IMG/VR virus record: IMGVR_UViG_3300046468_001198
Direction: 5' to 3' (one strand)
Length of the DNA: 20,000 nucleotides
Source: an uncultured virus (IMG/VR IMGVR_UViG_3300046468_001198)
Taxonomy: Duplodnaviria; Heunggongvirae; Uroviricota; Caudoviricetes
Shown: positions 4,038 through 19,920 of the stretch, piece by piece
How the letters are laid out: each line of letters begins with the position of its first letter
Position numbering within the stretch: position 1 is the first letter of the stretch
Translations under genes and position numbers: made by a program
Notes under the pieces: model-generated
Database searches by the model: none
What the model was told of the DNA's origin: nothing
Seen by the model: only the letters and a program-made list of their open reading frames with translations

Positions 4038-5009
4038 TTATAATCCGTTTGGTAGGATTACATAGTGTATGGCAAGTACCAGTGCAACTGATGCACCTAA
4101 CCCTACCATCATCTTACCAAAGTCTTTTGCCACAAGTGGAAAGATAGACTTTGTTTTTTGCTTACCAAAGTAAGTAGCCATTGCTAGTTCTCTACCTGCA
4201 AGTAAGCCTACGAACACCCACGTTGTTGACATAGGAATATCATTAAGCTCTTTAAAGAAGTACAAGCACATCCAATAGAACAAGTCAATCAATGTTGCTG
4301 ACCGAACATATCGTGTGTTGTGTTTCTCTAAAACGATCTGCTGTATGCGACCGCCTTTTTCTCTAAACATAAAGAACAAGCCTGCAACAAATACTACACT
4401 GATCATTAACATTAGATCAACTGGAATAACTCTTGGAAGGAACACTGCTATGTTAGCCATATCGTGCGACAACCAAGTCCACCATAGTCCGCCTGTTGCT
4501 ACCCATTGGGCGATGCGCCAGAACCGTTTGTTGCCTTCGTCTACAGGTTTTGTTTCGTCATACCATTGTCCAAAGTACTTGTGTATTGCAAACCATATAA
4601 AGTATGCAAATGCGGCCGCAACACCGTAGCCCATAATCGATTTCATAAGCATTTTCTCCAACACAAAAGTTGAAGCAAATACTGATAACACCAAGAACGA
4701 TGTTGACACTGGTACACCTATTCGCGTTAGTGCAACTAGGATTGCTGGTGCGGCGGCGTGATACCATTGTACCTCTTGCCAGGGTATTTTGTTTAGTCTT
4801 CCGTAACTGATGTCTCCACCATTTACTGTCCAACCATACCATAAGGTTGCAAGTAACACTGCACTTGCGGCTCCCCATAATACTTTGTAGTTGAATCGCT
4901 CATTGTTTGATGCCATCCAAGTACCGAGCGTTTGTACTGAATCATTTGCAATAACCGCGTATGCGGCTAACAGGAACCCGACTAGGCTCCATAAGGTGAG
5001 TGCGTCCAT
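4038..5009 (-). CDS. Multi-pass membrane protein with PiT/PHO4-like (inorganic phosphate transporter) signatures
   Basis: Many TM segments. Two internal repeats resemble PiT motifs: VIANDSVQT...GVPVSTSF and SHDMANIA...IPMSTTWVFVG (cf. GANDVANA / LPVSTTH). SD AGAGGAG. The substrate is inferred. Confidence 0.65.
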   Translation of the reverse strand: MDALTLWSLVGFLLAAYAVIANDSVQTLGTWMASNNERFNYKVLWGAASAVLLATLWYGWTVNGGDISYGRLNKIPWQEVQWYHAAAPAILVALTRIGVPVSTSFLVLSVFASTFVLEKMLMKSIMGYGVAAAFAYFIWFAIHKYFGQWYDETKPVDEGNKRFWRIAQWVATGGLWWTWLSHDMANIAVFLPRVIPVDLMLMISVVFVAGLFFMFREKGGRIQQIVLEKHNTRYVRSATLIDLFYWMCLYFFKELNDIPMSTTWVFVGLLAGRELAMATYFGKQKTKSIFPLVAKDFGKMMVGLGASVALVLAIHYVILPNGL

Positions 5010-5081
5010 TAGTTTCTCCTCTGCTTGACGGCTTTACCCCGTCGCTCACATAATAAGGTAGGCTCGACGTTGCCTACTGAT

Positions 5082-5115
5082 TATTTATAATACAAAACTA
5101 TTTGTAAAATGTCAA
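5082..5115 (-). promoter_or_regulatory. Composite sigma70 + T4-type late promoter for the PiT-like gene
   Basis: Minus strand TTGACA (5115-5110), 17 nt, TATTAT (5092-5087), overlapping a perfect TATAAATA (5089-5082). Confidence 0.7.
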
Positions 5116-5125
5116 CCGAAGATGG

Positions 5126-5192
5126 TATGCACAATATGCATAACGAGTATTTGAAAAATGCATTTGATTTATGCTCAAATAGACGTTATAAT
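5126..5192 (+). promoter_or_regulatory. LysR-type dyad pair plus sigma70 promoter for the small-protein operon
   Basis: Perfect dyad TATGCA-CAATA-TGCATA (5126-5142, T-N11-A). A degenerate copy ATTTG-AAAAA-TGCAT lies 22 bp later (5149-5163) and abuts TTGATT (5164-5169), 17 nt, TATAAT (5187-5192). Confidence 0.65.
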
Positions 5193-5217
5193 AAAGTTAC
5201 TTTTAATAAATAAGAGT

Positions 5218-5365
5218 GAATAGGGCAGTAGTGCTGTACTATTCGACACACATAGACACATTGGATAGACAATGCGGATTATCCATCCGTTACAAGCGAT
5301 TGACGGCTACCAAAGGTAGTTGCACCGCCGGGGAAGTTCCGGGGTATTGCTTTCCTCAAGCATCC
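5218..5365 (+). ncRNA. Candidate structured 5' leader or sRNA (five hairpins)
   Basis: No credible ORF and locally GC-richer. Stems at 5218-5244, 5262-5290, 5296-5328, 5328-5342 and 5348-5362. No RNA family recognised. Confidence 0.5.
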
Positions 5366-5390
5366 TAAAAACTTTATCAAGGAGAAAAAA

Positions 5391-5567
5391 ATGTTAAAAG
5401 CATTGAATGGCCTTGTGAGTTTACTTGGAAACCCACTTCCGACTAGGAAGTTTGAAAAAGAGATGCTCACTTACGCCAAAACAGAGTACGGAAAAGATTG
5501 GCAGTATGCCTATTCTTATATGCTATCGCACAACGGCCGCGGCCCAAGAGCGGGAGTATACAACTAA
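5391..5567 (+). CDS. Small protein, 58 aa (MLKALNG...MLTYAKTEYGKDWQYAYSYM...GVYN)
   Basis: Below the track cutoff. Strong SD AAGGAG (5379-5384); its TAA overlaps the next ATG. Confidence 0.8.
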   Translation: MLKALNGLVSLLGNPLPTRKFEKEMLTYAKTEYGKDWQYAYSYMLSHNGRGPRAGVYN

Positions 5568-5827
5568 TGACACAATATGTATTAACAGCATCAAGCTGGA
5601 TTAGTGACGCCTATTGGGGTCTTGTAGATTTAGTTAAACAATGGAGACGCAACAGAGCCCGCAAGGCTATGATTGCAACAACTCGTAGAGAGTTATCCAA
5701 CCTTACTGATCATGAACTACGTGACCTAGGAATAGGTCGAAGCGATATAACAAGTATTGCAAACGGAACCTTTCATGATAACAGAATGAAAGCAAGAACT
5801 AATGCTAACTTAAAAGGATGGGTATAA
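5567..5827 (+). CDS. DUF1127 family small protein (86 aa)
   Basis: WRRNRARK...TRRELSNLTDHELRDLGIGRSDI is the DUF1127 signature. The C-terminal NANLKGWV resembles Rhodobacteraceae versions as I recall them. True start is the ATG at 5567 (TAATG overlap), not 5498. Confidence 0.92.
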   Translation: MTQYVLTASSWISDAYWGLVDLVKQWRRNRARKAMIATTRRELSNLTDHELRDLGIGRSDITSIANGTFHDNRMKARTNANLKGWV

Positions 5828-6024
5828 TGACTGCGGCAACTATTAGAGACAACACTTGGAACTTTACTTGTAAGACTTGTGTAGTTTTACGAAACACATT
5901 AATTGCAATATGGGTCGGCTTTATTGCATTTGGTGAATCAGCAGGCAGAGCGAGAGCGGCCTCTGAACTATCACGCATGGGTATGCACAAAGAAGCCAAA
6001 GCTCTTATGTTGGAGAAACGCTAA
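5827..6024 (+). CDS. Small protein, 65 aa (…GRARAASELSRMGMHKEAKALM…)
   Basis: ATG at 5827 overlaps the previous TAA; SD-like AAAGGA upstream. Confidence 0.8.
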   Translation: MTAATIRDNTWNFTCKTCVVLRNTLIAIWVGFIAFGESAGRARAASELSRMGMHKEAKALMLEKR

Positions 6025-6158
6025 TGTGGAAACGGTTTATTAAAGCAATGGAATACAGAAGTTACTGTATGGCGATAAGAGAACTAAGAAGCAGAGGCTA
6101 TTATGAAAAAGCCAACGAGATATCTGAGTTTAAACATAAAGTATACGGAACATTTTAA
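6024..6158 (+). CDS. Small protein, 44 aa (MWKRFIKAMEYRSYCMAIRELRSRGYYEKANEISEFKHKVYGTF)
   Basis: Not in the track. TAATG overlaps at both ends; GGAG SD upstream. Confidence 0.7.
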   Translation: MWKRFIKAMEYRSYCMAIRELRSRGYYEKANEISEFKHKVYGTF

Positions 6159-6229
6159 TGTGGCCTTATACTGAAGAAGAAAACGATTTCTTAAACAGAA
6201 AAATAATAGATAAAAAGGGCGGCAAGTAG
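6158..6229 (+). CDS. Micro-ORF, 23 aa (MWPYTEEENDFLNRKIIDKKGGK)
   Basis: Fourth consecutive TAATG overlap; the stop lies in the loop region of the terminator hairpin. Confidence 0.5.
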   Translation: MWPYTEEENDFLNRKIIDKKGGK

Positions 6230-6239
6230 TCGCCCTTTT
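6213..6239 (+). terminator. Intrinsic, possibly bidirectional, terminator
   Basis: AAAAGGGCGGC-AAGTA-GTCGCCCTTTT. Confidence 0.8.
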
Positions 6240-6257
6240 ACCACACACAGAGGACTT

Positions 6258-6380
6258 ATGAAAAACTTACTTGAAAACTTAATAGCACGATGCGACGGCG
6301 AACTATGTGACAACATAGGCTTTAGTCTACTTGCTATTTTTTGTGTCAGTGTTATGTACATATCACTTAGTCAAATCTAA
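6258..6380 (+). CDS. Small single-TM protein, 40 aa (MKNLLENLIARCDGELCDNIGFSLLAIFCVSVMYISLSQI)
   Basis: Not in the track. SD AGAGGA preceded by a CA tract; hydrophobic C-terminal half. Confidence 0.65.
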   Translation: MKNLLENLIARCDGELCDNIGFSLLAIFCVSVMYISLSQI

Positions 6381-6381
6381 G

Positions 6382-6458
6382 TGTTGTAATACTGCTACAA
6401 ATTTACACAGTTTACGCTAACAGGGTTGACTATGCCTGTGTTCTCTGCTATATATAAT
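6382..6458 (+). promoter_or_regulatory. TGT-N12-ACA box and sigma70 promoter upstream of pseudoazurin
   Basis: TGTTGTAATACTGCTACA (6382-6399); TTGACT (6426-6431), 17 nt, TATATA (6449-6454) with an extended TG, and TATAAT at 6453-6458. Confidence 0.55.
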
Positions 6459-6514
6459 ACACGCTACAAATTCTTGTAGCATACTACACATATACACAAA
6501 GAAAGAAAACACAA

Positions 6515-6946
6515 ATGAAAAAATTACTCACTACAGTTGCCCTCATGGGTCTACTATCAACCCCGGCATTTGCCGCAGACATTTCCGTCGACATGCTAAA
6601 CAAGCGTGACGATGGCGCTAAAATGGTTTACAGTGAAGACATCTCAGTTATCGAAGTAGGAGATTCAATCACATGGTTGCCAACATCAAAAGGTCACAAT
6701 GTAGAATTCATTGCTGGGCCAGATGGTTGGGACTCACCAAAGAAATCAAAACTATCAAAAGAATACACATATACATTTGACACACCAGGTGTGTACTTGT
6801 ACCAATGTACACCACACAAGAGCATGGGAATGATTGCTATTGTAGTTGTAGGTGAACTAACACAAGAAGGCGTTGATGCTATCAAAGACGCTAAGGTACG
6901 TGGCAAGTCAAAGAAGAAACTAAAGGCACTATTGGCTGACCTATGA
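6515..6946 (+). CDS. paz: Pseudoazurin (type 1 blue copper protein) with signal peptide
   Basis: Signal peptide ending AFA; copper ligands in GHNVE (His) and YQCTPHKSMGM (Cys, His, Met); VDMLNK...MVYS N-terminus and C-terminal helix typical of pseudoazurins. Confidence 0.9.
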   Translation: MKKLLTTVALMGLLSTPAFAADISVDMLNKRDDGAKMVYSEDISVIEVGDSITWLPTSKGHNVEFIAGPDGWDSPKKSKLSKEYTYTFDTPGVYLYQCTPHKSMGMIAIVVVGELTQEGVDAIKDAKVRGKSKKKLKALLADL

Positions 6947-7140
6947 GTAAGGTAACTGAAGATGCACAAAAGCAAGCCGAAGTTGCATTTGACGGCTTCA
7001 TCTTGTGGAGCAAACGCACTACCTATGCTTCAATAGCATTTTTGTTTATTGTTGCAAGTTGTAACTTTGGTGTTGAAGATGATACCTATCCAGGATACAA
7101 CGGAGAACAGTATAGCCCAACAGGACTAAGTACAGACTAA
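6943..7140 (+). CDS. aa3-type cytochrome c oxidase subunit IV-like membrane peptide with an acidic C-terminal extension
   Basis: QAEVAFDGFILWSKRTTYASIAFLFIVASCN resembles the QExTFxGFx+W...N pattern of Rhodobacter/Paracoccus subunit IV; ATGA overlap with paz. Confidence 0.55.
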   Translation: MSKVTEDAQKQAEVAFDGFILWSKRTTYASIAFLFIVASCNFGVEDDTYPGYNGEQYSPTGLSTD

Positions 7141-7247
7141 TGCACGGCGATAGGGGTAACATGAAAATAGTTTGGCTCATGTTAGCCCTATGCGTATTCC
7201 TACACATTGTAGTAATACCTATATGGATGAGGAGTCTAGGACTATGA
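7140..7247 (+). CDS. Single-TM peptide, 35 aa (MHGDRGNMKIVWLMLALCVFLHIVVIPIWMRSLGL)
   Basis: Not in the track. Exactly fills the gap, with a TAATG overlap at the start and an ATGA overlap at the end. Confidence 0.7.
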   Translation: MHGDRGNMKIVWLMLALCVFLHIVVIPIWMRSLGL

Positions 7248-7459
7248 AACCAAATAAAAACTTTGAATTAACTGTAAGAGACATTGAAGTTATCGAACAG
7301 GCACTAAGAGCAAAGGCTGGCCGTAGAGGATTGGCCATTGCACAAGGCGATGTATCGGAAAAGCTAAAAGAAGAAATGCACGAGATACAAGAACTGCTAG
7401 GACGTATACATCATCAAAAGGTATGGTATACTCCAAAAGAATTTGTTCCAGGCGGTTGA
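7244..7459 (+). CDS. Hypothetical protein, 71 aa (MKPNKNFELTVRDIEVIEQAL...LLGRIHHQKVWYTPKEFVPGG)
   Basis: True start is the ATG at 7244 with SD GAGGAG, not 7172. Resembles small Rhodobacteraceae hypothetical proteins from memory (unverified). Confidence 0.8.
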   Translation: MKPNKNFELTVRDIEVIEQALRAKAGRRGLAIAQGDVSEKLKEEMHEIQELLGRIHHQKVWYTPKEFVPGG

Positions 7460-12135: not shown

Positions 12136-13056
12136 ATGCCAGAGATGAAAAGCACAAACTATATTGCAAAAGATAGAGAGTCAATGTATGATCCTATGGA
12201 AGATAGGATGCATGATGAAGATCCGTTTAGTTCGTTAATGTTAATTGACTTAATGACTACAGAACTATGTAACTTAACTTGCGAGTTCTGTCCAAGAGCT
12301 CACGGATATCCAAATCTAAACTTACACATGGATTTAAAGTTAATTGACAAAATAGGCAAAGAACTTGCCAACAGTCATTATAAGAATAGACTGTTGTATT
12401 GCGGCTTTGGCGAAAGTTTATTATACAAGCATCTAACTGAAAGTATACAACTGCTTAAAAAGCACATGCCATGGCAAGAAAATATACACATGGTAACAAA
12501 TGGTGATAGGCTTACTTACGATAAGACACTTGAACTACTCGACGCAGGAATCAATAAATTCTTTGTATCAATGTACGACGGTGAGTGGCAAGTAGAGAAG
12601 TTCACAGAACTATTTGAAAAAGTTGGTATGACTAAAGATCAATATATCCTGCAACACTATTACAAGCCACCTGAAGAAAACTACGGGTTTCTTTATCTAA
12701 GTAATAGAGCAGGATATTTGTTTGATCAAAAACTACCCGAACTAGGGTGTAACATTCCGTTCTATGCGATGAGCATACATTGGGACGGCGATGTACTATT
12801 ATGTTCACATGATTGGGAAAAGAAACAGATCATGGGCAACGTAGGCAAGCAAAGCATACAAGACATTTGGCTTAAAAGTAAAAAACTATGGGAATTTAGA
12901 CAAAGACTAGCTCAAGACAGAAACTGTCATCCTTGTAACAAATGTAATATCAAAGGTGTGCTTTATGGTAATGTTAGTAAAGATACATTGTTTGCTAACG
13001 AACAACAACTAGATCCTTCCAAAAAAGAAATTAAGATAAAAAACTTGACCAGCTAG
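12136..13056 (+). CDS. Radical SAM protein with C-terminal SPASM/twitch domain
   Basis: CNLTCEFC; C..PF...IHWDGDVLLC...GNV...SIQDIW...CNKC. Confidence 0.9.
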   Translation: MPEMKSTNYIAKDRESMYDPMEDRMHDEDPFSSLMLIDLMTTELCNLTCEFCPRAHGYPNLNLHMDLKLIDKIGKELANSHYKNRLLYCGFGESLLYKHLTESIQLLKKHMPWQENIHMVTNGDRLTYDKTLELLDAGINKFFVSMYDGEWQVEKFTELFEKVGMTKDQYILQHYYKPPEENYGFLYLSNRAGYLFDQKLPELGCNIPFYAMSIHWDGDVLLCSHDWEKKQIMGNVGKQSIQDIWLKSKKLWEFRQRLAQDRNCHPCNKCNIKGVLYGNVSKDTLFANEQQLDPSKKEIKIKNLTS

Positions 13057-16208: not shown

Positions 16209-17066
16209 ATGCAGATAAAAATTAAGACTGACACAACAGATCTGACTATACAACTAGCAAACACTCCTTTTGCAAAACAATGGGGTGTTTATGCACGAAC
16301 TCTTACCAAGGATAACTTTTATATCACACGACCTTGGAGCATGTTGCACAACGAAAATCTAGAACTTGCTGAGAAGGCTCATAGTAGTCTTGTAGAATGT
16401 ATAGACTATGTTTCACAACGCATAACTGATTATGATTGGAGTAAAACAAAAGATGCTGTGTCAGCTGTAATGCAGGATAGACAACAAAAACACTGTAACA
16501 CTATACATCGTGCTTTTACATTTATGACCCTAAAAGGTCATTTAAAAACATTTTATACACAAGAGCTAGATAGGCAAGTACACATTATTAACAGTGCTGT
16601 ACATGAATTAGAATCGTTTTATACCTATCAACAACTAGAAACTAGACAAAAGTTCAACGGACAAGTACAACAAATTCTATTTACAGATGCAGGTAACATG
16701 GAAGGTAAAGATTTTTCTATGTGGAACACAAACATAACTGAGCCGTTTGATCATACTACACAAGAAACAAACTATGACGTTTGGCTCAACGAAGATATAC
16801 TAGGCAAAGATCTAGTAAGATGTTTTTTAGACAACGACGATCCTAACAATCCGGACATCACAGGAAACTTGTTCTTAACACCTAGCCTGTATGTTGATAT
16901 AGATCGCATGTACGATAAAGTTTTAAACAGTATCGAGTTCAACGAATGGCATCAACGTCTGTGTCCTAACAAAACACTAGACAGATATCCTATTGGAAAT
17001 GTTATTGAACGTAACGGAGTACAGGTTAATCTAAATGAGCCTGTCAAGGAGTATTCAATTGAGTAA
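16209..17066 (+). CDS. Hypothetical protein heading the radical SAM operon
   Basis: 285-aa ORF with TAAATA 4 nt upstream; His/Asp/Glu clusters (NTIH, INSAVHELE, LGKD...DNDD). Confidence 0.8.
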   Translation: MQIKIKTDTTDLTIQLANTPFAKQWGVYARTLTKDNFYITRPWSMLHNENLELAEKAHSSLVECIDYVSQRITDYDWSKTKDAVSAVMQDRQQKHCNTIHRAFTFMTLKGHLKTFYTQELDRQVHIINSAVHELESFYTYQQLETRQKFNGQVQQILFTDAGNMEGKDFSMWNTNITEPFDHTTQETNYDVWLNEDILGKDLVRCFLDNDDPNNPDITGNLFLTPSLYVDIDRMYDKVLNSIEFNEWHQRLCPNKTLDRYPIGNVIERNGVQVNLNEPVKEYSIE

Positions 17067-18255
17067 CTGTAAAACTTGTATACTTCCATGGATACATCTA
17101 CACACATGGCCTAACAATGATGTTTACCCTTGCTGTCTAACTCCACAGTCGGATATTGTAGGTAACTTAGACACACAAACACTCAAAGAAGTATTCAACT
17201 CAGAGGGTATGCGAAGCATACGCAAAGACATGTTGAATGGCGTAGAGCCCCCTAGCTGTACCCGTTGCTTTGAACAAGAACGTGCTGGTTTGTTTAGTAT
17301 GCGAAACGACTCAAATGAACGTTTTAAACATCACAACAATCTAATAGCCACTACACAAGAAGACGGAACCGTAGATGATATGAATCTAGTCTATTGGGAC
17401 TTTAGATTCTCGAACATCTGCAACTTCAAATGTCGTTCATGTGGGCCACAACTGTCATCAGGGTGGTACAAAGATTTCAAACAACTCAACAATGGTGTGT
17501 TACCTCCCAACTGTCCAGACCCAGATAGACCCATTACCCTATGGGAACAACTAGAGCCATTGTTTGACTCTGTAGAACAGATATACTTTGCAGGGGGTGA
17601 ACCTTTGCTTATGGAAGAACACTATCGCATACTCAATCGTCTGATTGAAATGGGCAAGACCGATGTACACATACGCTACAACACCAACTTCTCAACAATG
17701 AAATACAAACGTCAAGATGTAATAGAACTATGGAAACACTTTTCAGATGTAAAAATAGACTGTAGCATAGATGGAATGAACCAACAGGGTGAATTTGTAC
17801 GCTCGGGTATGGATTGGCAACAGATACTAGACAATCGACAACGTCTTAGAGAACAAGCGCCGCACGTATGGTTTGGCATCAACTGCACAACATCAATACA
17901 AAATGCATACCATGTTGTAGACTTTTGGCGTTGGGCCTACACAACTAATTTTATAGACACTGCTGAACACTTTCATGTTAACCTAGTGCAAGATCCACAA
18001 TGGTTACGCATATCAGCACTGCCTCAACATCACAAGCAAGCACTAGCTGAACTCTATACCCAAGCTCAACAAGAATCATTGAGTGTGAACGCACCCAATA
18101 CTGCACGTGACTGGGCCAGTGCTGTAAAGTTTATGATGGCCACACAAGAAGACACTCTCCAAGAGTTTCGTTATAAAATGCTGTTGGTTGATAGACTGCG
18201 TGGCGAAGACTTTGCACAAACATTCCCTGAACTAGGAGACTTGATGTGCGAGTAG
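17035..18255 (+). CDS. Radical SAM protein with N-terminal SPASM/twitch domain
   Basis: CILPWIHL...PCC...CTRC, then DFRFSNICNFKCRSC, FAGGEP, YNTN and SIDG. The real start may be TTG 17059 (SD AAGGAG at 17046-17051). Confidence 0.9.
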   Translation: MSLSRSIQLSNCKTCILPWIHLHTWPNNDVYPCCLTPQSDIVGNLDTQTLKEVFNSEGMRSIRKDMLNGVEPPSCTRCFEQERAGLFSMRNDSNERFKHHNNLIATTQEDGTVDDMNLVYWDFRFSNICNFKCRSCGPQLSSGWYKDFKQLNNGVLPPNCPDPDRPITLWEQLEPLFDSVEQIYFAGGEPLLMEEHYRILNRLIEMGKTDVHIRYNTNFSTMKYKRQDVIELWKHFSDVKIDCSIDGMNQQGEFVRSGMDWQQILDNRQRLREQAPHVWFGINCTTSIQNAYHVVDFWRWAYTTNFIDTAEHFHVNLVQDPQWLRISALPQHHKQALAELYTQAQQESLSVNAPNTARDWASAVKFMMATQEDTLQEFRYKMLLVDRLRGEDFAQTFPELGDLMCE

Positions 18256-18836
18256 CTGTTGGTTGTTCATACACTGCGGGCATAGGCGTTGATGCTTGTG
18301 AAACATATCCTATTATTATGGGCTATGAAAATTGGGCCAAGCCTGGAGTAGATATCGAATGGTGCTTGTGGTCAGCACATCGTGCTGTAGAGCATGGTGC
18401 AACTGATCTAATATTTCAGCTTACTTCATGGGATAGATCTACCCTAGCCAACGAAGGCACACACAACTTTGCTCACAATAGAAGTTATACTGGCGAGCCT
18501 AGACTAGAACACTACACCATAGCAGACTACATTAATTCACATGATGCCAACTTCAAATGGTATTATGAAACACAAACACTGAGCAATTGGCGCACAGAAA
18601 ACCTAGCACAAAGACTGGTAGAGTTTCGCACATGGGCTGGTTGGAACGACTGTAGAGTACAGTTTGTTGATTGGTTGCCTAGACATCCTGGTGTTGATCC
18701 ACACCCATTGGTGCAAACACTGTTGCCCGCTCACAGCATATTGGATTGGTTGGGCAACGACTATTTCATAGACGATCACTATCATGTGAACGCAGGCGGA
18801 CATCTAAAGATAGCGAGAGAATACTTTGGAAAATAA
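18246..18836 (+). CDS. SGNH/GDSL-like hydrolase-fold phage protein
   Basis: VAVGCSYTAG...NWAKPG...FQLTSWDR...DHYHVNAGGH. Confidence 0.65.
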   Translation: MRVAVGCSYTAGIGVDACETYPIIMGYENWAKPGVDIEWCLWSAHRAVEHGATDLIFQLTSWDRSTLANEGTHNFAHNRSYTGEPRLEHYTIADYINSHDANFKWYYETQTLSNWRTENLAQRLVEFRTWAGWNDCRVQFVDWLPRHPGVDPHPLVQTLLPAHSILDWLGNDYFIDDHYHVNAGGHLKIAREYFGK

Positions 18837-19920
18837 GCCCTGTCTACTGCCGTTTATACACATAGAAACAACACCCACAGGTGGTGCTAGACCCTGCTGT
18901 CAATGGCAAGGCACAGACGTAGGCAATTTCAACACACAAACACTTGACGAGATATGGCAGGGCGAACCTTTGGAAACACTGCGCGAACAGTTCCGTAAAG
19001 GCCGACGGCCTGCGGGTTGCACCAACTGTTGGCGTGCCGAAGCCAGTGGCTACACATCAAAACGACTGAACGACAATCAACGTTTTGCTCACTACGCTCA
19101 CGGAGTCACACTTGATGCACCTGTGTATTTGGATCTAAAGCTGGGCAGTCTCTGCAACATCAAATGTCGTATATGCTCAACTGAATACTCACACAAATGG
19201 CAAGAGGATGAAACACTGATATATGGTGCTCCCAAACATCGTACTGTGTTGGGCTGGATGGACGAAACTTCACAGTTTTGGCAGGACCTAGCTGGTATAG
19301 CACACACCATAGAGTTCATTGACTTCACAGGTGGAGAGCCGTTTCTAGTCAAAGGACACTGGCGATTGTTGGAACGTCTTGTGGAACTAGGAGTGGCTCA
19401 CAACATCTCAGTACACTACAACACCAACGGCACTGTGTTGCCCAAGCAGAGACACCTATGGAGCAAGTTCAAGTATGTTGAGGTTATGTATTCATTTGAC
19501 GGTGTGGGAGCCAAGTTCAACTATCAAAGACACCCTGCTGATTGGCACACATGCCAACAGAACTTTCAAACTGTGCTAGATGAAGGTGTAGCTCGAGTGC
19601 AACTGTGTCATACTGTGAACATATTCAATGTGTTGGACATGCAGGAGTTTGCTGAGTGGGCTCCCTGTGAAGTCTATTGGAACATGCTGTATGGTCCTGG
19701 TCACTACTCAATACAGAACCTTCCTGAACCAGTAAAGAATCAAATAGCACACACTATTCCAAGATCAGACATACGCAACTACATGACAGCTGAACCACAA
19801 GACACCAACAACTGGCGTACCTTTTGGAGTCTTACTGGAGAATTGGATCAAATACGCAAGGAAACATTTGCACACACATTCCCCGAATTATACGCACTTA
19901 TTGAACCATACAAACCCTAG
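18826..19920 (+). CDS. Second radical SAM protein with N-terminal SPASM/twitch domain
   Basis: CLLPFIHI...PCC...CTNC, then DLKLGSLCNIKCRIC, FTGGEP, YNTNG and SFDG; TTG start. Confidence 0.9.
   Translation: MENKPCLLPFIHIETTPTGGARPCCQWQGTDVGNFNTQTLDEIWQGEPLETLREQFRKGRRPAGCTNCWRAEASGYTSKRLNDNQRFAHYAHGVTLDAPVYLDLKLGSLCNIKCRICSTEYSHKWQEDETLIYGAPKHRTVLGWMDETSQFWQDLAGIAHTIEFIDFTGGEPFLVKGHWRLLERLVELGVAHNISVHYNTNGTVLPKQRHLWSKFKYVEVMYSFDGVGAKFNYQRHPADWHTCQQNFQTVLDEGVARVQLCHTVNIFNVLDMQEFAEWAPCEVYWNMLYGPGHYSIQNLPEPVKNQIAHTIPRSDIRNYMTAEPQDTNNWRTFWSLTGELDQIRKETFAHTFPELYALIEPYKP

What the first reader, a model, noticed from the sequence alone, without database searches (positions are those of the whole stretch)
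5391..6239. Five small ORFs chained by four consecutive TAATG overlaps, mostly invisible to standard ORF calling
Seen: ORFs of 58, 86 (DUF1127), 65, 44 and 23 aa, each joined by a 1-nt stop/start overlap (5567, 5827, 6024, 6158) and closed by a terminator. ORFs 3 and 4 share an A-x-x-E-L-x-x-x-G-x-x-x-x-A pattern (AASELSRMGMHKEA vs AIRELRSRGYYEKA), loosely echoing the DUF1127 helix (RRELSNL...ELRDLG). Inference: a translationally coupled array of small, possibly homologous helical effectors that remodel host RNA or protein regulation. Together with the LysR-type box and the leader RNA, this is the best candidate for an undescribed system in the window.
Basis: partly seen in the sequence, partly recalled or inferred. 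Interest (0 to 1): 0.72.

Follow-up and report, generated by a model that had tools for sequence, protein, structure and literature searches.

The report
Phage operon of five tiny genes
A large uncultured marine phage carries a real, widely conserved row of five very small genes (one of a known regulator family, one only 13-23 codons long) behind a folded RNA leader, and it probably retunes host regulation, though this is untested.

Summary
ORFs o1 5391-5567 (58 aa), o2 5567-5827 (86 aa, DUF1127), o3 5827-6024 (65 aa), o4 6024-6158 (44 aa) and o5 6158-6229 (23 aa) are joined by four TAATG stop/start overlaps and closed by a strong terminator.

They are genes, not chance ORFs. In 43 distinct related viral loci the order o1-o2-o3 recurs in 37. 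The TAATG joints are kept (35/38 and 34/38). All five families show purifying selection (median dN/dS 0.18-0.42).

o5 is a conserved micropeptide (MWPYT[DN][DE]E...) of 13-25 codons, found in at least 120 viral contig stretches. o3 and o4 share a roughly 20-residue motif with moderate support. Neither resembles DUF1127.

A leader RNA precedes o1, and its 37-nt core is identical in front of 53 different o1 peptides. RNA-library contigs cover the operon.

The window is a fragment of a large marine phage, not a Roseobacter genome. The only cultured carrier of o3 plus DUF1127 is Methylophilales phage Melnitz.

Function is unproven. My best reading (about 0.4) is a set of basic RNA-binding microproteins with their own hairpin-array RNA. 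PhoR/phosphate control and membrane-energy roles are the rivals.

The parts
5164..5192 (+). sigma-70-like promoter candidate (TTGATT, 17 nt, TATAAT) overlapping the palindrome ATTTGA-N7-TCAAAT
   Evidence: scores it 10 of 12, but the region as a whole is not enriched (7 sites found, 6.9 expected). The -35-like TTGATTT and an A/T-rich -10 recur in the window's subgroup of loci. Function is inferred.
5206..5212 (+). ATAAATA box, resembling the T4-type late promoter TATAAATA (that consensus is recalled, not from a call)
   Evidence: The box is present in 30 of 31 distinct leaders, plus one ATAAGTG variant. It lies within 200 nt upstream of the leader core in 75 of 80 further loci. It is not enriched in the window as a whole: 7 found, 6.05 expected.
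5213..5390 (+). Structured 5' leader RNA: an array of hairpins, an invariant core at 5328-5364, and a UUUCCUC-containing loop ahead of the Shine-Dalgarno AAGGAG
   Evidence: MFE is -49.4 kcal/mol, z -2.35. RNAalifold on 20 leaders predicts 26 pairs, 6 of them with compensatory changes. Further stems covary with outgroups by eye. The 37-nt core matches exactly in 85 viral stretches, and 73 of 73 testable ones are followed by o1 at 20-30 nt. There is no Rfam match.
5391..5567 (+). o1: a 58-aa protein of an unnamed family, with conserved core YAKTEYG.DW.YAY.YM..H.G.GP
   Evidence: 31 distinct relatives with 13 invariant columns. 476 clusters in the protein collection, none named and none with a Pfam domain. 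Median dN/dS is 0.30. No Pfam, PHROG or NCBIfam hit.
5567..5827 (+). o2: an 86-aa DUF1127 protein with an N-terminal amphipathic extension and a C-terminal tail N.NL[KR]GWV
   Evidence: PF06568 at E 5.4e-13 and 2.1e-14. 31 distinct relatives. Median dN/dS is 0.35. Mean net charge is +4 and Arg content 10.2%.
5827..6024 (+). o3: a 65-aa basic helical protein of an unnamed family, with core GESAGRARAA.EL.RQGY..EAKALM. An alternative ATG lies at 5818.
   Evidence: 29 distinct relatives. At least 2268 clusters, all unnamed. Melnitz gene 45 belongs to the family: hhalign 99.3%, E 6e-21. AF2 models helix 3-50, a turn, then helix 54-62, pLDDT 72.6. Median dN/dS is 0.42.
6024..6158 (+). o4: a 44-aa very basic protein (KAMEYRSYCMAIRELR..GYY..A.EISEFK), a short paralogue of the o3 C-terminal motif
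   Evidence: 16 distinct relatives with 77% mean column identity. 186 clusters; the 120 listed are 44 to 63 aa, nearly all 44-47. Related to o3 by hhalign at 63%, E 6.9e-5, and by reciprocal HMM hits. Median dN/dS is 0.18.
6158..6229 (+). o5: an acidic micropeptide with conserved core MWPYT[DN][DE]E.[DE][FWY][LIV][SN]. Here it is 23 aa and reads into the terminator stem.
   Evidence: 15 distinct forms of 13-23 aa in the first locus set. Median dN/dS is 0.28. Heterozygosity by codon position is 0.18, 0.15 and 0.46. A pattern scan found at least 120 stretches; the 80 fetched give 66 distinct ORFs, all 13-25 codons.
6213..6241 (+). Intrinsic terminator: A tract, GGGCGGC stem, loop, GUCGCCC stem, U tract. 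It has the shape of a two-way terminator.
   Evidence: z -5.3. One search lists the same hairpin on the minus strand.

Best explanation
SHOWN. This is one conserved transcription unit of a large uncultured marine phage. It runs: promoter box, a roughly 180-nt folded leader RNA, then five tightly joined small genes, then a terminator. The genes are o1, the DUF1127 protein o2, the paralogous basic helical proteins o3 and o4, and the acidic micropeptide o5. All five are real coding genes kept by selection. The stop/start overlaps are kept too, which fits ribosomes passing from one gene to the next so that the products are made together.

INFERRED (my commitment, about 0.4). The cassette is an RNA-centred regulatory module, a phage counterpart of the bacterial ccaF1-CcsR arrangement in which a DUF1127 protein is made from the same transcript as an array of hairpin RNAs that it binds. 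The strongly basic o2, o3 and o4 would bind the repeated hairpins of their own leader, setting translation or processing of the operon. They would also bind host transcripts and change their stability. Portable C-terminal tails shared among o1, o2 and o3-like proteins would dock them to a common partner.

The roles of o1 and o5 remain open.
For: Real genes. o1-o2-o3 occur in that order in 37 of 43 distinct loci. Of the other six, four are cut by contig ends, one lacks o2 (L047), and one has no detectable o1 (L022). Median dN/dS is 0.30, 0.35, 0.42, 0.18 and 0.28 for o1 to o5, and the third codon position is the most variable in all five.

Coupling. TAATG joints are retained in 35/38 and 34/38 loci. 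A GGA-core Shine-Dalgarno-like motif lies 4-18 nt before the starts in 42/42, 34/39, 35/39, 21/21 and 18/24 loci. That criterion is loose and had no shuffle control.

RNA constraint. The 37-nt leader core is identical in 85 viral stretches. In 73 of 73 testable ones it is followed by o1, although 53 different o1 peptides follow it. Hairpins covary.

Protein properties. Mean net charges are o2 +4.0, o3 +3.8, o4 +5.0 and o5 -2.6.

Precedent. CcaF1, a DUF1127 protein, binds RNA and matures the CcsR hairpin sRNAs of its own transcript (PMC8034643, abstract and section headings seen).

Shared function of the small proteins. The tail N.NL.GW[VI] sits on o2 in most loci but on o1 in L055/L058. A second tail, GDHY..G..VA.WKG.A, sits on an extra DUF1127 protein in L032/L041 and on an o3-like protein in L004/7/14/47.

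Expression. Contigs from RNA libraries lie on the unit: X17 5267-5851 (1 mismatch), X15 5478-6220 (17 mismatches), X16 5606-5951 (0 mismatches). DNA carried over into RNA libraries cannot be excluded, and a contig spanning several genes does not prove a single transcript.
Against: No binding of any kind was tested. The hairpin array lies upstream of the genes, not in a 3' UTR as in ccaF1-ccsR. Its loops differ from the CCUCCUCCC loops, and no Rfam family matches it at any threshold tried.

Some DUF1127 proteins act through protein contacts rather than RNA: PhoR binding by Agrobacterium SDPs and E. coli YjiS, and no RNA binding seen for Salmonella YjiS (PMC12501420, discussion read).

The leader could equally be the target of a host factor or a small ligand. 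o3 has a borderline hydrophobic helix (mean maximal Kyte-Doolittle 19-residue window 1.65), which would also fit a membrane protein. Arg content of o2 (10.2%) is below the 14% average quoted for the family.
Confidence: 0.4

Rival explanations
1. Phosphate-signalling hijack. The phage DUF1127 protein mimics host DUF1127 regulators and binds the host sensor kinase PhoR, resetting the Pho regulon during infection. o1, o3 and o4 would be accessory subunits.
For: DUF1127 proteins of Agrobacterium, Sinorhizobium, Rhodobacter and E. coli act on PhoR or complement that defect across species (PMC12501420, abstract and discussion).

In 14 of 43 distinct loci, including the window, the divergent upstream neighbour is a distant PiT/PHO4-like permease. 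The evidence for that assignment is a profile hit to PDB 6L85 phosphate transporter at E 2.2e-4, Atlas clusters named phosphate/sulfate permease at 0.99, and PF01384 at E 5.7e-5, below cut-off, for the L021 homologue.

An earlier scan note (e1-5847067) reports pstSCAB beside a related DUF1127 gene.
Against: The neighbour varies. Other loci have IMPDH/GMP reductase, fatty-acid desaturase or an unnamed 275-aa protein at that position. The host and its PhoR are unknown. No Pho box was sought. This reading does not explain the invariant leader RNA.
Confidence: 0.2
2. Membrane and energy module. The small proteins sit at the inner membrane and modulate the respiratory chain, ATP synthase or transporters.
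For: Relatives carry an ATP-synthase c-subunit gene inserted between o3 and o4 (L035/L037, PF00137 at E 1.8e-12). A plastocyanin/pseudoazurin-type copper protein follows the operon in the window (6515-6946, PF00127 at E 4.1e-15). Small one-helix ORFs lie nearby (o6, o8). o3 has a borderline transmembrane-like helix. Salmonella YjiS is membrane-located (PMC12501420 discussion).
Against: The energy genes are variable cargo and are absent from most loci. o1, o2, o4 and o5 have no hydrophobic segment: mean maximal KD19 is 0.52, 0.83, -0.07 and -1.17. The hydrophobic stretch of o3 is short and interrupted by R and N.
Confidence: 0.12
3. Anti-defence (Acr-like) locus: an array of small proteins that block host immune systems.
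For: Small, tightly packed genes with a variable slot after o3 resemble the layout of anti-defence loci. That resemblance is general knowledge, not from a call.
Against: The core is strongly conserved over wide divergence rather than fast-turning. The promoter box is of the late type (inference). One member belongs to a bacterial regulator family. No anti-defence library was searched.
Confidence: 0.05
4. Chance ORFs, or non-coding sequence conserved only as RNA.
For: TAATG is a common pentamer in this A/T-rich DNA: 35 per 20 kb strand.
Against: There are amino-acid-level families with hundreds to thousands of members. Third-codon-position variability is in excess and dN/dS is below 0.45 for all five. 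ORF lengths are conserved, including 66 of 66 o5 ORFs ending within 13-25 codons.
Confidence: 0.01

Closest known systems
Bacterial small DUF1127 proteins (Rhodobacter CcaF1, Agrobacterium SDP1-3, E. coli and Salmonella YjiS)
   Same: o2 carries the PF06568 domain above the curated cut-off. It is basic and rich in Arg.
   Different: o2 is 83-90 aa, with an N-terminal extension and a conserved C-terminal tail. It is phage-encoded and always embedded in an operon with unnamed small proteins. Arg content is 10.2% against the quoted family mean of 14% (PMC12501420 discussion).
ccaF1-ccsR (CIN1-type) loci of Alphaproteobacteria: a DUF1127 gene co-transcribed with hairpin sRNAs
   Same: A DUF1127 gene and an array of conserved hairpins share one transcription unit.
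   Different: The hairpins lie in the 5' leader, not the 3' UTR. The loops differ. No Rfam model matches. Extra genes o1, o3, o4 and o5 are present. The resemblance is in how it may work, not in membership.
Methylophilales phage Melnitz (Kyanoviridae) genes 44-46
   Same: Gene 45 is an o3-family member (hhalign 99.3%). Gene 46 is DUF1127 (E 3.7e-9). The order o3 then DUF1127 matches loci L055/L056/L058.
   Different: Gene 44 is not demonstrably o1 (hhalign probability 1%). No o4 or o5 was seen in the stretch read. The Melnitz paper's main text has 0 occurrences of 'DUF1127'.
Tightly packed small-gene clusters of T4-like phages with overlapping stop/start codons
   Same: 1-nt and 4-nt overlaps are the general packing style of these contigs, also downstream of the operon.
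   Different: Here the joints and the gene order are retained across proteins down to about 45% identity, and the unit has its own leader RNA.

Membership tests
Pfam DUF1127 (PF06568) | Profile match above the curated gathering score | tested here: met
   o2 scores 48.9 bits against a cut-off of 23.3, E 5.4e-13. It scores 49.2 bits in the six-frame search.
Pfam DUF1127 (PF06568) | Unusually high arginine content (family mean about 14%, PMC12501420 discussion) | tested here: inconclusive
   The o2 family mean is 10.2% Arg with net charge +4. This is raised, but below the quoted mean.
Pfam DUF1127 (PF06568) | Binds RNA (CcaF1) or the sensor kinase PhoR (SDPs, YjiS) | not testable with these tools
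ccaF1-CcsR / cuckoo-type RNA loci | Hairpin sRNAs matching the Rfam models, located downstream of the DUF1127 gene | tested here: not met
   No Rfam match at gathering score over the window. At E up to 10 over 4950-6550, four weak matches appeared, none to these families. The hairpins lie upstream of the genes.
   0 of 31 o1 family members match at E up to 1.
o3-like helical hairpin family (unnamed) | Shared motif A..EL.R.GY...A between o3 and o4 | tested here: met
   hhalign gives 63%, E 6.9e-5 over 20 columns. The o3 HMM finds 18 of 21 o4 and the o4 HMM finds 38 of 39 o3 among 655 ORFs, at weak E-values of 0.013 to 1.2. Support is moderate.
T4-type late transcription unit | TATAAATA-like box upstream (consensus recalled, not from a call) | tested here: inconclusive
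   The window has AATAAATA. ATAAATA is present in 30 of 31 leaders and 75 of 80. No gp55-type factor was sought, and no Gp23 or T4 portal lies on the five fragments searched.
Intrinsic terminator | G+C-rich hairpin followed by a U run | tested here: met
   (z -5.3).
PiT / PHO4 phosphate transporter (upstream neighbour 4038-5009, minus strand) | Pfam PF01384 match above cut-off | tested here: inconclusive
   The window protein has no Pfam hit. The L021 homologue scores 22.7 bits against a cut-off of 33.7. The profile hits PDB 6L85 at E 2.2e-4. Atlas names support it. The AF2 model was unusable, pLDDT 39.
Anti-defence (Acr-type) locus | Match to a known anti-defence protein, or a demonstrated activity | not tested
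   No such library was searched.

The most novel reading that the evidence does not exclude
The cassette is an undescribed class of viral host-takeover module, widespread in giant marine phages. It would be a self-regulating ribonucleoprotein unit made of a hairpin-array RNA, a DUF1127 protein, two unnamed microprotein families with interchangeable docking tails, and a 13-residue peptide. This unit would rewire host RNA turnover or two-component (PhoR) signalling late in infection. The 13-25-codon o5 would then be among the smallest conserved, selected viral genes.
Probability: 0.25. Interest if true: 0.8.

Novelty: new variant of a known kind. Interest (0 to 1): 0.6.

Why it matters
DUF1127 is a large bacterial family whose mode of action is still disputed between RNA binding and kinase binding. 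A phage version that always travels with fixed partner microproteins and an invariant RNA gives a natural, compact system for asking what DUF1127 touches.

The families are abundant in ocean viromes: 476, at least 2268 and 186 clusters for o1, o3 and o4, and at least 120 stretches for o5. Yet they are unnamed, and I found them in no paper. The searches were 'DUF1127' (48 papers, 30 listed) and 'DUF1127' plus 'phage' (10 papers); I saw titles and the starts of abstracts only. The Melnitz paper's main text has 0 occurrences of 'DUF1127'.

One cultured phage-host pair (Melnitz on OM43 strain H5P1) carries o3 plus DUF1127, so part of the module can be tested at the bench.

Tried and rejected
Complex prediction for o2 + o1 + o3, with o3 as partner: no verdict, score 0.00, controls not folded. 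This counts neither for nor against binding.

AF2 of the upstream membrane protein from 13 sequences gave pLDDT 39.3, so no fold search was made.

The Atlas gave no usable hit for o1.

No match in the phage collection for the region by blastn, for o1 by tblastn, or for the membrane protein by tblastn. PHROGs gave only phrog_26566 (unknown function) for o2 and nothing for o1, o3, o4 or o5. NCBIfam gave nothing for o1-o4.

The genome-contig scan for o3 used one narrow peptide pattern and found only 2 loci, both in metagenome-assembled genomes. So absence from cellular genomes is not shown.

Gp23 and T4-portal profiles found nothing on the five fragments searched, and nothing in the control genomes either, so 'T4-like' stays unconfirmed.

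RNA-library contigs left 5022-5243 and 6280-6353 uncovered in all four runs laid. No DNA run was laid beside them, so this is no evidence for transcript ends.

Melnitz gene 44 as an o1 homologue: rejected. o2 related to o3 or o4: rejected.

Enrichment of TATAAATA or ATAAATA in the window: none.

Earlier-findings look-ups by place and by sequence returned nothing.
Full report
**What is in the window**

Searches confirm five consecutive + strand frames:
- o1, 5391-5567, 58 aa
- o2, 5567-5827, 86 aa
- o3, 5827-6024, 65 aa, with an alternative ATG at 5818
- o4, 6024-6158, 44 aa
- o5, 6158-6229, 23 aa

Each is joined to the next by TAATG; the pentamers start at 5565, 5825, 6022 and 6156. o2 is a DUF1127 protein (E 5.4e-13, 48.9 bits against a cut-off of 23.3). 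A strong hairpin with a U run at 6213-6241 closes the row (z -5.3).

The window is part of a 37,681-base virus record that CheckV rates 7% complete. GC is 0.34-0.47. Neighbouring genes are typical phage cargo: PRPP synthase, a plastocyanin-type copper protein, a 2OG-Fe(II) oxygenase, an HNH endonuclease and radical SAM enzymes. It is not a Roseobacter genome. The host is unknown.

**Are these genes?**

Two scans of viral contigs with o2 and o1 returned 21 and 37 loci. After removing duplicates, 43 distinct loci remain.

o1, o2 and o3 occur together in 37 of the 43. Of the other six, four are cut by contig ends. L047 lacks o2 and joins o1 to o3 by TAATG. L022 has no detectable o1. Three loci (L055, L056, L058) have the order o1-o3-o2.

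o4 was found in 21 loci. It is directly joined to o3 in 17 of them: 11 by TAATG and 6 by an 8-nt overlap. In the other 4 it is separated by inserted genes.

Protein identities to the window run from 100% down to about 45%, yet the alignments keep sharp motifs.

Nei-Gojobori estimates give median dN/dS of 0.30, 0.35, 0.42, 0.18 and 0.28 for o1 to o5. The third codon position is the most variable in every family. Many pairs are near saturation at synonymous sites, so these ratios are, if anything, too high.

None has a Pfam domain. Some o4-bearing contigs reach 331 kb. CheckV rates related contigs of 204 kb and 133 kb as 56% and 37% complete, which implies genomes of about 350 kb.

**The micropeptide o5**

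In the first locus set, o5 appears as 15 distinct peptides of 13-23 residues with the core MWPYT[DEN][DE]E.[DE][WF][LI].

The 80 stretches fetched give 66 distinct ORFs and 57 peptides. Every one ends after 13-25 codons. Residues that the pattern did not fix repeat the scheme: acidic, then aromatic or aliphatic, then [LIV], then [SN]. 43 of the 66 start in TAATG.

The gene ahead of o5 varies: o4, o2, a copper protein, or other small ORFs. So o5 behaves as a gene in its own right. In the window its last codons (KKGGK) are the terminator stem.

**Relations among the five**

o3 and o4 share about 20 residues (A..EL.R.GY...A). hhalign gives probability 63%, E 6.9e-5. Each family's HMM picks up the other next in rank among 655 local ORFs, though at weak E-values of 0.013 to 1.2. 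An 82-84-aa ORF that fills the o4 slot in L004/7/14/47 is a further o3-like protein (E 5.5e-6 to 0.18). Neither o3 nor o4 resembles DUF1127 (probability 0.3-0.4%).

Two C-terminal tails move between families. N.NL.GW[VI] ends o2 in most loci but ends o1 in L055/L058. GDHY..G..VA.WKG.A ends a second DUF1127 protein in L032/L041 (PF06568 E 5e-10 and 2e-10) and also ends the o3-like protein of L014 (BLASTP E 2e-5). I read such swaps as a sign that the proteins serve one function.

o3 is modelled as a long helix, a turn and a short helix (pLDDT 72.6). o2, o3 and o4 are basic (+4.0, +3.8, +5.0) and o5 is acidic (-2.6).

**The leader**

All 31 distinct upstream regions carry an ATAAATA box (one has ATAAGTG) 115-238 nt before the o1 start. 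This resembles the T4-type late promoter; I recall that consensus from memory.

Between the box and o1 lies an array of hairpins. RNAalifold on 20 leaders predicts 26 pairs, 6 with compensatory changes. Two more stems covary with outgroups by eye. The window's leader folds at z -2.35.

The last 40-odd bases are invariant in those 20 leaders. The 37-nt core occurs exactly in 85 viral stretches. Of the 80 fetched, 73 have enough downstream sequence to test, and all 73 are followed by an o1 gene 20-30 nt later. 53 different o1 peptides follow it. The RNA is therefore more constrained than the protein it precedes.

No Rfam family matches. A loop UUUCCUC lies about 30 nt before the AAGGAG ribosome site. 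Pairing between the two is possible but weak.

**Expression**

Contigs assembled from three metatranscriptome runs lie on the unit with few or no differences:
- 5267-5851
- 5478-6220
- 5606-5951

Two of the three runs come from one sample, so these are two samples from two studies. This shows the sequence in RNA libraries. It does not exclude carried-over DNA, and it does not prove a single transcript.

**Context**

The divergent upstream gene (4038-5009, minus strand) is a distant PiT/PHO4-like permease. It holds this position in 14 of the 43 loci. Other loci have IMPDH/GMP reductase, a fatty-acid desaturase or an unnamed protein there.

The slot after o3 takes cargo in relatives, for example an ATP-synthase c subunit in L035/L037.

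Among deposited phages, only the four Methylophilales phage Melnitz records carry o3 and DUF1127. Their genes 45 and 46 are adjacent.

**How it may work**

Bacterial DUF1127 proteins bind RNA and mature hairpin sRNAs of their own transcript (CcaF1; PMC8034643, abstract and section headings seen). They also bind the kinase PhoR (PMC12501420, abstract and discussion read).

Three observations favour an RNA-centred module (about 0.4):
- the invariant hairpin-array RNA is tied to the genes;
- o2, o3 and o4 are basic and helical;
- the ccaF1-CcsR arrangement is a precedent.

On this reading the proteins bind their own leader and probably host RNAs. PhoR control (0.2), a membrane-energy role (0.12) and anti-defence (0.05) remain open. 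None was tested.

**Earlier notes of this scan**

One search listed notes that describe the same cassette in other genomes. I treated them as leads. My own calls reproduce four of their points: the leader, the 13-residue peptide, the c-subunit insert, and the variable phosphate-uptake neighbour. They do not reproduce a DUF3563 label for the first gene (0 of 31).

**Verdict**

It is a new, phage-borne variant built around a known family. Function is unproven.

Noticed in passing
window 4038-5009 (-): A 323-aa multi-helix membrane protein, divergent from the operon, is a distant PiT/PHO4-like phosphate permease. The profile hits PDB 6L85 at E 2.2e-4, and Atlas clusters are named phosphate/sulfate permease. 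The protein itself has no Pfam hit. A TATAAATA box at 5082-5089 (-) lies 73 nt ahead of its start.
   Followed up: partly
window 5125-5181: There are two palindromes upstream of the promoter boxes: TATGCA-N5-TGCATA and ATTTGA-N7-TCAAAT. Related palindromes (GTCATGC-N7-GCATGAC) stand at the same place in other loci.
   Followed up: no
window 6258-7459: Downstream lies a second run of small genes: o6 (40 aa, one hydrophobic helix), a plastocyanin/pseudoazurin-type copper protein (6515-6946), o8 (65 aa, hydrophobic helix), a 35-aa ORF and o9. o8 and o9 recur in many relatives, in some directly after o5. So the conserved unit may originally have run on past the present terminator.
   Followed up: partly
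L027, L028, L029, L035, L037, L044 (just after o4): A further conserved 20-codon ORF, M[LI]DP[DN]H[ST]Y.KP.[GE]EKKKGGK, lies between o4 and o5, again joined by TAATG. Its KKGGK end resembles the end of the window's o5.
   Followed up: no
L035 3616-4058; L037 3622-4064: An ATP-synthase c-subunit gene (PF00137, E 1.8e-12) and a 73-aa one-helix partner are inserted between o3 and o4 in relatives. They are absent from the window.
   Followed up: partly
window 12136-13056 and 17035-19920: Three radical-SAM-type proteins and unnamed neighbours lie on the + strand. This may be a modification or peptide-maturation cluster. It was not examined.
   Followed up: no
G000 and relatives: CheckV completeness is 7% for the 37.7-kb record. 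Relatives score 56% at 204 kb, 37% at 133 kb and about 30% at 107 kb, and contigs with o4 reach 331 kb. These phages are probably of about 350 kb. No T4 capsid or portal profile hit was found on the fragments searched.
   Followed up: partly
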